Source of the DNA: Escherichia coli
GTDB taxonomy: Bacteria; Pseudomonadota; Gammaproteobacteria; Enterobacterales; Enterobacteriaceae
Length of the DNA: 64,000 nt
Direction: 5' to 3' (one strand)
NCBI RefSeq assembly: GCF_044324875.1
Contig: NZ_CP172185.1
In this document: positions 22,423-24,343 of the stretch, in pieces
How positions within the stretch are numbered: position 1 is the stretch's first letter
Layout of the letters: each line of letters starts with the position of its first letter
Program-made: the position numbers and the translations under genes
The notes under the pieces: generated by a model
Databases searched by the model: none
What the model was told of the DNA's origin: nothing
The model's input: only the letters and a program-made list of their open reading frames with translations

Positions 22423-22528
22423 CTCCTGAGCAGGCGGCACTATGCCGCTTTCATAGGAGTTCTGAATGCTGGTGCTTTCTGTATGGCATAACCATGCCTC
22501 TAACGGTTAAGTGCCTGCAGCACATGTT
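22423..22528. repeat. Copy 1 of a ~100-bp repeat containing a 37-bp palindrome
   Basis: About 85 percent identical to 24240-24343; overlaps the last codons of the HigA-like gene. Confidence 0.6.
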
Positions 22529-22790
22529 GCGGATCATTGGCAATCGCTCGCAGCAAAGCCTTTGCAGGCCCAGTCGGTGAACGTCGCCCCTGCTCCCAGT
22601 TACGCAACGTGTCTACGCTTACGGAAATAAGTTCGGCAAATTTAGATTGTGACAACCCTGAAGCGCGGCGTATTTCTTTGATTTTCATAGCATCAACTTC
22701 AAAAGTCCGTGAAGGGTGTCGCGTTCCTTCAATAATTTCATTCATCTGGGCCATGCTGTGAGTCAACCGCTCAAAAAGTGCCTTATCCAT
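22500..22790 (-). CDS. HTH (XRE-family) antitoxin, HigA-like
   Basis: 96-aa ORF; HTH region SGLSQSKFAELISVSVDTLRNWEQG; start directly after toxin gene stop. Confidence 0.75.
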   Translation of the reverse strand: MDKALFERLTHSMAQMNEIIEGTRHPSRTFEVDAMKIKEIRRASGLSQSKFAELISVSVDTLRNWEQGRRSPTGPAKALLRAIANDPQHVLQALNR

Positions 22791-23102
22791 TTACCACCTC
22801 GTATTTAACAACCGGAGCATTGATTTTTCCTGGGGAGACAGATCATCTTTAATACCCTTACGATAAATAAGCAGTAATCTGATCTCATAATGTTTAACCT
22901 GATGAAAGTAAATAACCCTGACACCAGCACGTTTCCCCTTTCCTCCTGACACCCATCGAACCTTTCTTAACCCACCAGTTTCAGGTATTACCTCACCATA
23001 GTCAGGATTCAAGGCCAGGAAAAACTGAAAACGACTGAATTCATCGTCGGTCAGCAGTTTTTGAACATCTTCAGTAAAAATTTCCGTTTCGATGAAGAGC
23101 AT
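22791..23102 (-). CDS. RelE/HigB-superfamily toxin
   Basis: 103-aa ORF with KGKRAGVRVIY motif; toxin-first gene order typical of HigBA-type modules. Confidence 0.7.
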   Translation of the reverse strand: MLFIETEIFTEDVQKLLTDDEFSRFQFFLALNPDYGEVIPETGGLRKVRWVSGGKGKRAGVRVIYFHQVKHYEIRLLLIYRKGIKDDLSPQEKSMLRLLNTRW

Positions 23103-23330
23103 AATTATACGCCATTGGCTTAGAGTAACAATCCTTTTTGTACGTCATTGACGTACCCTTGAAACCACTAGCTTACTGATAGTGCTCCAGCAAAACCACG
23201 TCTCTGCCGGGTTTGTCTTTACATTTGCGAGGCGCTTTCCAGATTTTTCACGCCCGTGAATTTCCCTGTATCCATCCAGCAAAAACGGGTGTATAAAACT
23301 GTACATTCATACAGCAAAATGAGTTCTACT

Positions 23331-24239
23331 ATGGCACTGGAAAAAGGAATTGCAGAGTTAGTCGAAGAGTTTATCGCTGCGGGTCGCCCCTCATCGCGTC
23401 AACAAAGTATTGCGCAGCGCAGGGAGGGCTATATCGCCAGCGCTGTCCTTGCGGGTGAGACAGAAACGCGGGTAGATATTCAGACTATCGAACTTGAAGG
23501 GATGATCTTACGAATAGTGTCACCGCTGAATGCCCCGACATTACTCCCGACGATAATTTATTACTACGGTGGCTGTTTTGTTAGCGGCGGGTTCGCAACT
23601 CACGACAACCAGCTGCGCCAGTTAGCCTATTACGGGCAATGTCGGGTTATTGCCGTCCAGTATCGGCTGGCACCGGAACAGACTTTCCCCGCCGCCCATG
23701 ATGATGCGCAACGAGGTGCAGAATTAGTCTGGCAACACGCCGAACGACTCGGCGTTGATAAACAACGGATAACTCTTGCCGGTGACAGTGCGGGCGGACA
23801 TCTGGCGCTGGTAACTGCTTTGCGATTAAAGCGTGCTGGCGAGTGGCAACCGGCACAACTCATCTTAATTTATCCCATGCTTGATGCGACTGCGCATTTC
23901 GAAAGCTACATACGCAATGGTCACGATTACATCATCACACGCGACACTTTACTGAGCGGCTTTGAGATGTATCTGCCAGGCATTGAACGCAGGCATCCTG
24001 AAGCCAGCCCTCTTTGGCGCGATGATTTCAATGGCTTGCCACCTGTACATATCATTACCGCTGAATACGACCCACTTTGCGATGAAGGTGAAGCGTTGTA
24101 TCACCGCATGACAGGGCAAGGAGTGCAATGCACCTGCCAACGCTACCTTGGCGTTATCCACGGATTTTTTCAGTTAGGTGGTATCAGTGAGGCTGCGCGA
24201 TCGGCGCTGCGGGATGTGGCCTGGAGAGCGGGAAGGTAA
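23331..24239 (+). CDS. Alpha/beta-hydrolase esterase/lipase (HSL family)
   Basis: GDSAGG nucleophile elbow, HGF motif near C-terminus; start ambiguous (GTG 23256, ATG 23319 or ATG 23331). Confidence 0.75.
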   Translation: MALEKGIAELVEEFIAAGRPSSRQQSIAQRREGYIASAVLAGETETRVDIQTIELEGMILRIVSPLNAPTLLPTIIYYYGGCFVSGGFATHDNQLRQLAYYGQCRVIAVQYRLAPEQTFPAAHDDAQRGAELVWQHAERLGVDKQRITLAGDSAGGHLALVTALRLKRAGEWQPAQLILIYPMLDATAHFESYIRNGHDYIITRDTLLSGFEMYLPGIERRHPEASPLWRDDFNGLPPVHIITAEYDPLCDEGEALYHRMTGQGVQCTCQRYLGVIHGFFQLGGISEAARSALRDVAWRAGR

Positions 24240-24343
24240 CTCCTGTGAAAGCGGCACTATGCCGCTTTCACAGGAGTTCTGAATGCTGGTGCTTTCTGTA
24301 TGGCTTCGCCATGCCCCTCGCAGCTAAGTGCCTGCGCACATCT
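24240..24343. repeat. Copy 2 of the ~100-bp repeat; perfect 37-bp palindrome at 24240-24276
   Basis: CTCCTGTGAAAGCGGCA cta TGCCGCTTTCACAGGAG directly after the esterase stop codon. Confidence 0.6.

What the first reader, a model, noticed from the sequence alone, without database searches (positions are those of the whole stretch)
22423..24343. Direct repeat of ~100 bp with a 37-bp palindrome flanking the TA module and esterase
22423-22528 and 24240-24343 are about 85 percent identical in the same orientation. Copy 2 begins with the perfect palindrome CTCCTGTGAAAGCGGCA-cta-TGCCGCTTTCACAGGAG right after the esterase stop; copy 1 has a degenerate version and overlaps the final codons of the HigA-like gene. 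This suggests recombination or duplication history, a shared terminator, or a mobile miniature element.
Basis: seen in the sequence. Interest (0 to 1): 0.55.

Follow-up and report, generated by a model that had tools for sequence, protein, structure and literature searches.

The report
Recombination scar repeat flanking toxin-antitoxin module
The two ~105-bp repeats are real: one is the conserved control region in front of a small gene, the other is a second version of that region brought alongside by an old illegitimate recombination, so this is an ordinary but instructive scar in a variable E. coli locus, not a mobile element.

Summary
The repeat is confirmed: R1 22421-22525 and R2 24238-24341, direct, 86-88% identical, with no other copy in the window.

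It is not a dispersed element. In 5,426 complete E. coli genomes it occurs only at this fdhE-fabY locus.

R1 is the native spacer between the antitoxin gene nadS (higA-like) and a small gene, orf70. Its quasi-palindrome holds orf70's ribosome-binding site. It is 94% conserved in Pseudocitrobacter, where the flanking genes are 73% identical.

R2 is a second version of the same region. It ends in a truncated nadS tail and joins the esterase stop codon at a 6-nt microhomology (AACTCC).

A divergent lineage carries the 617-aa gene next to a nadS relic and part of R, with no toxin-antitoxin module. The window's arrangement therefore looks like a fusion of two old haplotypes. Only 329 genomes have it.

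733 genomes keep one repeat and lack the 1.8-kb interval, with at least two different crossover patterns.

The perfect palindrome is recent. Other strains have the imperfect form in R2. Three clustered changes in one arm match a quasi-palindrome template-switch mutation.

The terminator and miniature-element readings are not supported.

The parts
22421..22525 (.). Repeat copy R1: the native nadS-orf70 spacer plus the last codons of nadS
   Evidence: The orthologous sequence lies between nadS and orf70 in Pseudocitrobacter.
22421..22461 (-). Quasi-palindrome of R1 (16-17 of 19 positions pair). On the minus strand it is a stem-loop just upstream of orf70. Its 3' arm carries the Shine-Dalgarno AGGAG (22423-22427), 7 nt before the orf70 ATG (22413-22415).
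   Evidence: Read from the sequence. Fold of 56 nt: -21.5 kcal/mol, z = -4.8, 0 of 200 shuffles as stable. 48 of 51 nt identical to P. vendiensis against 73% in the flanking CDSs.
22500..22525 (-). Right end of R1: the genuine stop codon and last codons of nadS (...HVLQALNR*)
   Evidence: The C-terminus is conserved in the Salmonella and Enterobacter NadS orthologues.
24238..24341 (.). Repeat copy R2: a displaced second version of the same region, lying between the esterase stop and the 3' flank of the 617-aa gene
24238..24278 (.). Perfect 19+3+19 palindrome of R2. Positions 24246, 24248 and 24250 (T, A, A) differ from the ancestral A, C, G, and all three restore pairing with the other arm.
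   Evidence: I3. Other type-A strains (NRZ14408, Z142-4, O121) have the imperfect arm GAGCAGG in R2.
24238..24243 (.). AACTCC microhomology at the joint between the esterase 3' end and R2
   Evidence: The type-B allele ends ...GGTAACTCCGGACC (L019). The R left edge is ...AAAACTCCTGAG.
24317..24341 (-). Truncated relic of the nadS 3' end inside R2 (no longer coding)
   Evidence: It aligns to 22500-22525. A longer relic of about 63 nt sits in the same position in the divergent lineage L029.
22500..22790 (-). nadS (HigA-like HTH antitoxin, 96 aa)
   Evidence: NCBIfam NF041265 NadS, 60.4 bits against a cut-off of 60; RefSeq annotation.
22791..23102 (-). Partner toxin (RelE/ParE/HigB-like, 103 aa)
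   Evidence: RefSeq names it 'type II toxin-antitoxin system RelE/ParE family toxin' in some genomes; phrog_5869.
23331..24239 (+). Alpha/beta hydrolase (hormone-sensitive-lipase-type esterase, 302 aa)
22203..22415 (-). orf70: small basic Cys-rich protein (CSCWMCG motif) whose leader is the R1 hairpin
   Evidence: (phrog_4499)
24408..26261 (-). 617-aa ORF of unknown function, the marker of the second haplotype that brought R2

Best explanation
The window is an E. coli chromosome at the variable fdhE-fabY locus.

R1 is the native spacer between the antitoxin gene nadS and the small gene orf70. Its quasi-palindrome is a conserved leader stem-loop whose 3' arm contains orf70's Shine-Dalgarno sequence. 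I infer that it limits orf70 translation.

R2 is not a fresh local duplicate. It is the counterpart of the same region from a second, old haplotype. In that haplotype a 617-aa gene had replaced most of nadS, the toxin gene, the esterase and a second higBA pair, leaving only a nadS tail next to R.

One illegitimate recombination at the microhomology AACTCC joined the esterase stop of the TA-bearing haplotype to the left edge of R in the 617 haplotype. This put the two versions in tandem, 1.8 kb apart (type A, the window). Being about 75 nt nearly identical, the two copies then serve as substrates for homologous or slipped-strand recombination. That removes the TA-esterase block and leaves one mosaic copy.

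In the window's sub-lineage, R2 no longer precedes orf70. It was converted from an imperfect to a perfect palindrome by a single intramolecular template-switch (quasi-palindrome) mutation.

Shown here: the repeat, its restriction to this locus, the polymorphism, the boundaries, the conservation, and the derived state of the perfect palindrome. Inferred: the order of events, the recombination mechanisms, and the translational role of the hairpin.
For: Locus and synteny: fdhE-nadS-toxin-esterase-fabY is shared with Salmonella, Enterobacter and Pseudocitrobacter.

R1 is native and constrained. The same sequence lies between nadS and orf70 in Pseudocitrobacter, and upstream of orf70 in Escherichia sp. 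MOD1-EC7003 where nadS is not adjacent. The core is 48/51 identical against 73% for the neighbouring CDSs. More distant orf70 homologues (58% and 51% identity) have the same two-tier hairpin with GGAG in the 3' arm and different but still complementary inner stems: GCGGCA/UGCCGC, GGGGCA/UGCCCC and GCGCGGC/GCCGCGC. Strains with a decayed orf70 show indels and substitutions in the palindrome.

R2 boundaries: the AACTCC joint and the nadS relic.

Two haplotypes. Type B keeps a relic of the second higBA operator (TTTTCAGATTGAAAAC, as in Salmonella and Pseudocitrobacter) that types A and C lack, so B is not a deletion product of A. The metagenomic lineage L029/L030 has fabY, a 604-aa homologue (74% aa identity), a nadS relic and partial R, with no TA module. 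The unconstrained right part of the repeat is only 74% identical between R1 and R2, while neighbouring DNA differs by 2-4% among strains.

Single joint: 329 of 5,426 genomes carry the est|R2 junction.

Loss of the interval: 733 genomes have one copy flanked by the orf70 side and the 617 side. There are at least two mosaic patterns: KE55/O157 type, and L7_ETEC/O145 type with the switch about 15 nt further right (34 genomes at 99% or more).

Quasi-palindrome correction: R2 in NRZ14408, Z142-4 and O121 has the ancestral imperfect arm. Only the window-type allele (120 genomes at 99% or more) has three clustered changes, all restoring complementarity. The mechanism is described in PMC7202029.
Against: The order of events is reconstructed from about 20 loci and from count summaries, not from a phylogeny. 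Recombination has shuffled left-flank states (intact or decayed orf70) among types A, B and C. Whether present-day type-C genomes are primary, or secondary deletions from type A, cannot be decided genome by genome.

The 1-nt deletion shared by O157 (C) and Z142-4/O121 (A) lies only 13 nt from the joint. That fits heteroduplex repair or recurrence, but not a simple crossover.

The MAFFT/RNAalifold run on orf70 leaders found no compensatory pair. The compensatory pattern is seen only when each divergent leader is folded on its own, from three independent sequence types.

A symmetric protein-binding operator would give the same conservation pattern as an RNA hairpin. No transcript data exist for this region, and K-12 lacks it.
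Confidence: 0.68

Rival explanations
1. In-situ tandem duplication. The segment R-nadS-toxin-esterase was duplicated head to tail by unequal exchange at the AACTCC microhomology. The second copy of the genes was then replaced by the incoming 617-aa gene, leaving R2 and a nadS tail.
For: A tandem duplication produces exactly the observed novel joint (esterase end fused to the left edge of R). It also explains the nadS relic. It needs the same number of events as the hybrid-haplotype model.
Against: The 617-gene / nadS-relic / R adjacency exists in a divergent lineage without any TA module, so it predates or is independent of a duplication in E. coli. R1 and R2 are 26% different in the unconstrained part, far above within-species divergence. 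R2 keeps the ancestral C at the position where many R1 alleles have T.
Confidence: 0.17
2. Site-specific cassette. R1 and R2 are attL/attR-like sites and the 1.8-kb TA-esterase block is a mobile cassette that integrates and excises at the palindrome (integron-like or Xer-like).
For: Direct repeats flank a TA module. An 'empty site' with one copy exists in 733 genomes. A palindrome lies at one end of each repeat. TA cassettes are common in chromosomal integrons (general knowledge).
Against: The interval and its neighbours encode no recombinase. The block is syntenic at the same locus in three other genera, two of which lack R altogether. Crossover positions differ between single-copy strains. 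R2's ends are a microhomology joint and a truncated gene, not element ends. The repeat occurs nowhere else. The GTTRRRY-like GTTAAGT of R1 is GCTAAGT in R2.
Confidence: 0.03
3. Functional shared hairpin. Both copies are kept because the stem-loop acts as a transcript-end element (a terminator or 3'-end stabiliser), for nadS at R1 and for the convergent esterase and 617-aa genes at R2. The perfect palindrome was selected for a stronger barrier.
For: R2 begins at the esterase stop codon and lies between convergent genes. The perfect stem is very stable: the 126-nt folds give -57 to -60 kcal/mol with z about -5.9. In some R1 alleles the stem is followed by UUUUGUUAUG.
Against: No U-tract follows R2 on either strand, and the terminator scan reports nothing at R1 or R2. 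Type B, about 2,270 genomes, ends the esterase gene without R2. Most type-A R2 alleles are imperfect and carry indels, which speaks against selection on R2. This rival concerns present function and is compatible with the historical explanation.
Confidence: 0.12

Closest known systems
Deletion between short direct repeats in E. coli (RecA-dependent recombination, or RecA-independent slipped misalignment / single-strand annealing)
   Same: Two direct repeats of about 100 bp, with a nearly identical stretch of about 75 nt, lie 1.8 kb apart. Genomes exist with exactly one mosaic copy and the interval gone, and the switch points differ between them.
   Different: The deletion was not observed experimentally here. 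Some single-copy genomes may descend from an older haplotype that never had the interval.
Quasi-palindrome-associated template-switch mutation (Ripley model; Lovett laboratory reporters, PMC7202029)
   Same: An imperfect inverted repeat becomes perfect through several clustered base changes confined to one arm, each copying the complement of the other arm.
   Different: This is a natural, fixed example in a wild lineage (about 120 of 5,426 genomes), not a reporter. The replication strand and the triggers are unknown.
Homology-facilitated illegitimate recombination / microhomology joints in horizontally acquired DNA
   Same: The novel joint has a 6-nt microhomology (AACTCC) on one side, and ordinary homology (fabY) is available on the other.
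   Different: The donor and recipient are inferred from present-day haplotypes. The mechanism was not tested.
Shine-Dalgarno-sequestering leader hairpins (translational control by mRNA structure)
   Same: The 3' arm of the stem carries AGGAG 7 nt upstream of the start codon. The architecture recurs in distant homologues with changed but complementary stems.
   Different: No experimental evidence exists, and nothing is known about how the hairpin would be opened. The element is not in Rfam. A DNA operator is not excluded.
REP/BIME, ERIC/IRU, MITEs (dispersed enterobacterial repeats)
   Same: An intergenic palindromic sequence of 40-130 bp next to gene ends.
   Different: There are two copies at a single locus instead of tens to hundreds of dispersed copies. 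There are no terminal inverted repeats with a target duplication and no Rfam or annotation match.

Membership tests
Dispersed miniature element (MITE / REP / ERIC) | Many copies dispersed over unrelated loci of a genome | tested here: not met
   The window holds only R1, R2 and the palindrome's own reverse match. In E. coli genomes there are 1-3 places per genome, all at this locus. There are 0 viral contigs. Among species genomes there are 3 related hits, all at the orf70 leader.
Dispersed miniature element (MITE / REP / ERIC) | Terminal inverted repeats with a flanking target-site duplication | tested here: not met
   The palindrome lies at one end only. The other end is nadS coding sequence.
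Integrative element att sites / integron attC | A recombinase encoded in or next to the element | tested here: not met
   The interval encodes only NadS, the toxin and the esterase. Neighbours have no integrase hit.
Integrative element att sites / integron attC | A fixed crossover point within an identical core | tested here: not met
   Single-copy strains switch from R1-like to R2-like sequence at different positions.
Integrative element att sites / integron attC | An empty site with a single copy in related strains | tested here: met
   733 genomes. This is equally expected from homologous deletion.
Intrinsic (Rho-independent) terminator | A G+C-rich stem directly followed by a U-tract | tested here: not met
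   The scan reports no site at R1 or R2. The tails are CUGAAUGC (+) and ACCUUCCC (-) at R2, and UUACUAUG (-) at R1.
Quasi-palindrome template-switch mutation | The ancestral state is an imperfect inverted repeat | tested here: met
   All outgroups, all R1 alleles and the other R2 alleles have the imperfect arm.
Quasi-palindrome template-switch mutation | Multiple clustered changes in one arm, each matching the complement of the other arm | tested here: met
   GAGCAGG became GTGAAAG at 24246, 24248 and 24250. All three mismatches were corrected and there is no other change in the palindrome.
Quasi-palindrome template-switch mutation | Arises in a single replication-associated event | not testable with these tools
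   No intermediate alleles were seen among the loci read, but only a sample was read.
SD-sequestering leader hairpin | The Shine-Dalgarno sequence is paired within a stable stem just upstream of the start codon | tested here: met
   AGGAG at 22423-22427 lies in the 3' arm. The fold gives -21.5 kcal/mol, z = -4.8.
SD-sequestering leader hairpin | The structure is kept by compensatory changes in homologues | tested here: inconclusive
   Individual folds of L025 and L027 show the same architecture with different complementary stems. The automatic alignment gave no compensatory pair, and there are only three independent sequence types.
SD-sequestering leader hairpin | The stem alters translation of the downstream gene | not testable with these tools
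   This needs reporter fusions.

The most novel reading that the evidence does not exclude
The conserved two-tier stem-loop in R1 could be an undescribed cis-regulatory leader. It might be an RNA switch, or the operator of an unknown regulator. It would control a phage-derived pair of small Cys/His-rich proteins (orf70-orf102, with homologues in T5-like phages) that sits immediately downstream of a toxin-antitoxin operon. If so, antitoxin-operon read-through would be coupled to expression of these proteins. R2 would then be a decoy copy whose perfect palindrome matters for the convergent esterase and 617-aa genes.
Probability: 0.15. Interest if true: 0.5.

Novelty: new member of a known kind. 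Interest (0 to 1): 0.27.

Why it matters
The finding explains a conspicuous sequence feature without invoking a new element. The repeat is a by-product of two alternative haplotypes of one hyper-variable locus being fused.

It supplies a natural substrate for losing a chromosomal toxin-antitoxin module. About 6% of complete E. coli genomes carry both copies, and 13.5% carry one copy without the module.

It also gives a clean natural example of a multi-base quasi-palindrome template-switch mutation fixed in a lineage.

Finally, it points to a strongly conserved leader hairpin in front of an uncharacterised small-protein family with T5-like phage relatives.

None of these changes current concepts. 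They are useful for annotating this locus and as a test case for repeat-mediated deletion and quasi-palindrome mutagenesis in wild genomes.

Tried and rejected
Rfam at a permissive threshold over 18000-29000 found nothing at R1 or R2.

The sigma-70 promoter and terminator scan found nothing at the repeats.

Mobile-element reading: rejected by the copy-number searches.

The hit in a 'Chloracidobacterium' MAG (L010) is a bare 22-nt match with no flanking similarity. I treat it as chance.

'The TA module is a recent insertion': rejected by synteny in Salmonella, Enterobacter and Pseudocitrobacter. The Salmonella and Enterobacter records came from the plasmid collection, but they carry fdoHI-fdhE-fabY-dtd and so are chromosomal pieces.

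'Type B is a deletion derivative of type A': rejected because B keeps a higB2A2-operator relic that A lacks.

'The single copy in O157/KE55 is a chimera of the window's R1 and R2' was my first reading. I revised it once other type-A strains showed that R2's left arm was originally identical to R1's.

Pfam, NCBIfam and PHROGs gave nothing for the 617-aa ORF, orf102 or orf156, and only phrog_4499 (unknown function) for orf70.

The literature search for this locus (yiiE/yiiF/yiiD) returned nothing relevant. A search for NadS with antitoxin or HigB listed only HigBA papers in which 'NadS' does not occur.

RNAalifold on an automatic alignment of orf70 leaders misaligned the two divergent sequences and was uninformative.
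Full report
**1. The observation**

The window is an Escherichia coli chromosome segment running fdoGHI-fdhE ... fabY(yiiD)-dtd.

The repeat finder reports a 98-nt direct repeat, 22421-22518 and 24238-24335, at 88% identity and spaced 1817 nt. BLAST extends it to 22421-22525 and 24238-24341.

A 30-mer from the repeat with up to three mismatches occurs only at these two places in 64 kb, and in none of 100 shuffles.

Copy 2 (R2) starts with a perfect 19+3+19 palindrome at 24238-24278. Its first two bases are the last two of the esterase TAA stop.

Copy 1 (R1) has a degenerate palindrome at 22421-22461. It ends over the stop codon and last 8-9 codons of the HigA-like gene, which RefSeq and NCBIfam call nadS.

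**2. Not a dispersed or mobile element**

- Rfam has no match, and RefSeq annotates no feature there.
- A sensitive BLAST of R2 against 5,426 complete E. coli genomes finds it in 3,369 of them, at one to three places each.
- The three places are R2, R1 and the palindrome's own reverse-strand match, as a local BLAST on the window reproduces.
- An exact 20-mer from the palindrome occurs in only four of 100,044 species genomes. One of these is a bare 22-nt chance match.
- It occurs in no viral contig.

**3. What the native copy is**

The block nadS, toxin, esterase lies between fdhE and fabY in Salmonella, Enterobacter and Pseudocitrobacter as well. It is therefore old at this locus and not a recent insertion.

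The NadS C-terminus encoded by the right end of R1 (...DPQHVLQALNR) is homologous to that of the Salmonella and Enterobacter proteins. That part of R1 is genuine coding sequence.

In Pseudocitrobacter the same R sequence lies between nadS and a 70-aa gene, as in the window (orf70, 22203-22415, minus strand). In Escherichia sp. MOD1-EC7003 it lies upstream of orf70 with no nadS beside it. So the left ~75 nt of the repeat belong with orf70.

On the minus strand the palindrome forms a stem-loop. Its 3' arm contains AGGAG (22423-22427), 7 nt upstream of the orf70 ATG. The fold gives -21.5 kcal/mol with z = -4.8.

Between E. coli and P. vendiensis this core is 48/51 identical, while nadS, the toxin gene, orf70 and the esterase gene are each about 73% identical.

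More distant orf70 homologues (58% and 51% identity) carry a hairpin of the same architecture. The outer stem contains GGAG. The G+C-rich inner stem has a different but still complementary sequence. The T5-type phage homologue also pairs its SD.

In strains where orf70 has decayed, the palindrome carries indels and substitutions.

I conclude that R1 is the orf70 leader or operator plus the nadS tail. My preferred reading, SD sequestration in the mRNA, is an inference.

**4. What the second copy is**

R2's right end is a truncated, non-coding copy of the nadS tail. Its left end meets the esterase stop within AACTCC. That hexamer is present both at the esterase end of a type-B allele (GGTAACTCCGGACC) and at the left edge of R (AAAACTCCTGAG).

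The locus exists in four main forms among the 5,426 genomes:

| Type | Arrangement | Genomes | Source |
|---|---|---|---|
| A (the window) | R1, TA, esterase, R2, 617-aa gene, fabY | 329 | |
| B | R1, TA, esterase, 56 bp, fabY | about 2,270 | |
| C | single R, 617-aa gene, fabY | 733 | |
| No R | e.g. K-12, which lacks window 21899-26157 | about 2,057 | |

Type B keeps a relic of the operator of a second higBA pair (TTTTCAGATTGAAAAC). This operator is present twice in the esterase-higB2 spacer of Salmonella and Pseudocitrobacter, and is absent from types A and C. B is therefore not derived from A.

A divergent Escherichia-like lineage from metagenomes (L029/L030) has fabY, a 604-aa homologue (74% aa identity), a nadS relic of about 63 nt and the proximal part of R, with no TA module. 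The adjacency of the 617-aa gene, a nadS relic and R is therefore old.

R1 and R2 differ by about 26% in the unconstrained right part, against 2-4% for surrounding DNA among strains.

The simplest history is a fusion of two alternative haplotypes: one with the TA-esterase block, and one in which the 617-aa gene had replaced it. They were fused by one illegitimate joint, which put their two versions of R in tandem. An in-situ tandem duplication followed by replacement remains possible (about 0.17).

**5. Consequences of the repeat**

Single-copy (type C) genomes carry the orf70-side flank of R1 and the 617-side flank of R2. Their internal markers switch at different places. KE55, O157 and related strains switch before GGC(T/A)T. 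L7_ETEC and O145 keep the R1-type CATAACC and switch about 15 nt later.

R2 alleles of type-A strains recur as the single copy of type-C strains. NRZ14408 R2 equals the KE55 copy, and Z142-4 and O121 share a 1-nt deletion with O157.

This fits recombination or annealing between the two copies with patchy heteroduplex repair. It does not prove the direction for every genome. Left-flank states (orf70 intact or decayed) occur with types A and B, and the type-C loci read all have a decayed flank. The locus is clearly mosaic.

**6. The perfect palindrome**

R2 in NRZ14408, Z142-4 and O121 has the same imperfect left arm (GAGCAGG) as R1 and the outgroups. Only the window-type allele (K_EC180, FDAARGOS_1371; 120 genomes at 99% or more identity) has GTGAAAG.

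The three changes (24246, 24248, 24250) are confined to one arm. They correct exactly the three mismatches of the ancestral stem and are the only changes in the palindrome.

This is the signature of a quasi-palindrome template-switch mutation, in which the nascent strand copies the other arm and makes the repeat perfect (PMC7202029). No other donor sequence for this arm exists in the genome.

**7. Rivals**

- A site-specific cassette is very unlikely. There is no recombinase, the crossovers vary, the block is syntenic in other genera, and the repeat ends are not element ends.
- A terminator role is not supported by sequence: there is no U-tract. The very stable R2 stem between convergent genes could still act as a transcript-end stabiliser, which needs 3'-end mapping.

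**8. Verdict**

This is a real repeat with an ordinary origin. It is a recombination scar in a hot spot, with three modest points of interest:
- a natural substrate for loss of a chromosomal TA module;
- a fixed multi-base quasi-palindrome correction;
- a strongly conserved leader hairpin for an uncharacterised, phage-related small-protein pair.

Noticed in passing
window 20651-20677, 21096-21122, 23218-23244: A 24-27-nt motif (TTTAYWTTTGCGAGRCGYTTTYCAGAW, 83-92% identical) recurs upstream of the ribbon-helix-helix genes yiiE/yiiF and again in the divergent spacer between the toxin gene and the esterase gene (families D3/D4). It could be a shared regulator site or a promoter relic.
   Followed up: no
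window ~19118-20549: An IS3-family element (IS150-like OrfA/OrfB, ORFs 19160-19690 and 19795-20517) is inserted between fdhE and the yiiE region, with a 3-4-bp overlap of the flanks in other strains. The window also lacks about 297 bp containing yiiF that K-12, O157 and O26 have.
   Followed up: partly
window 26644-26691: A perfect 24-bp tandem duplication at the 3' end of fabY adds eight residues (EEGGNEEY twice) to the FabY C-terminus (family D5).
   Followed up: no
window 24408-26261 (-): The 617-aa ORF is intact here and has no Pfam, NCBIfam or PHROG match. In many RefSeq genomes the same DNA is annotated as a 304-aa 'transposase' plus a pseudogene, or as two hypothetical proteins in O157. 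The 'transposase' name has no support from these searches. K-12 keeps only about 100 bp of its 5' end.
   Followed up: partly
window 21833-22415 (-); L025 1145-1694; L028 ~990-1201: orf70 (CSCWMCG motif) and orf102 form a conserved pair of small basic Cys/His-rich proteins. orf70 hits phrog_4499 and has about 50%-identical homologues in 440 phage records, mostly T5-like. A metagenomic contig keeps the pair in another context. The function is unknown.
   Followed up: partly
L004 7864-7919, L018 5821-5883 (type-B E. coli); L008 4221-4305; L012 4297-4392: Type-B E. coli keep a 56-bp remnant with one copy of the palindromic operator TTTTCAGNTTGAAAAC. This belongs to a second HigB/HigA pair that is still present between the esterase gene and fabY in Salmonella and Pseudocitrobacter.
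   Followed up: yes
L013 5465-6331 (Escherichia sp. MOD1-EC7003): Here the orf70 leader (R) is followed not by nadS but by a homologue of the window's orf156 (21254-21724) in the opposite orientation. A 116-aa membrane ORF lies next to fdhE. This is another arrangement of the same hot spot.
   Followed up: no
window 21254-22420 versus L002, L003, L004, L007: In O157, O26, KE55 and K-12 the orf156-orf102-orf70 stretch is reduced to short remnants by the same internal deletions (about 21381-21815 and 21965-22361 missing). The window, K_EC180, NRZ14408 and Z142-4 keep the genes intact.
   Followed up: partly
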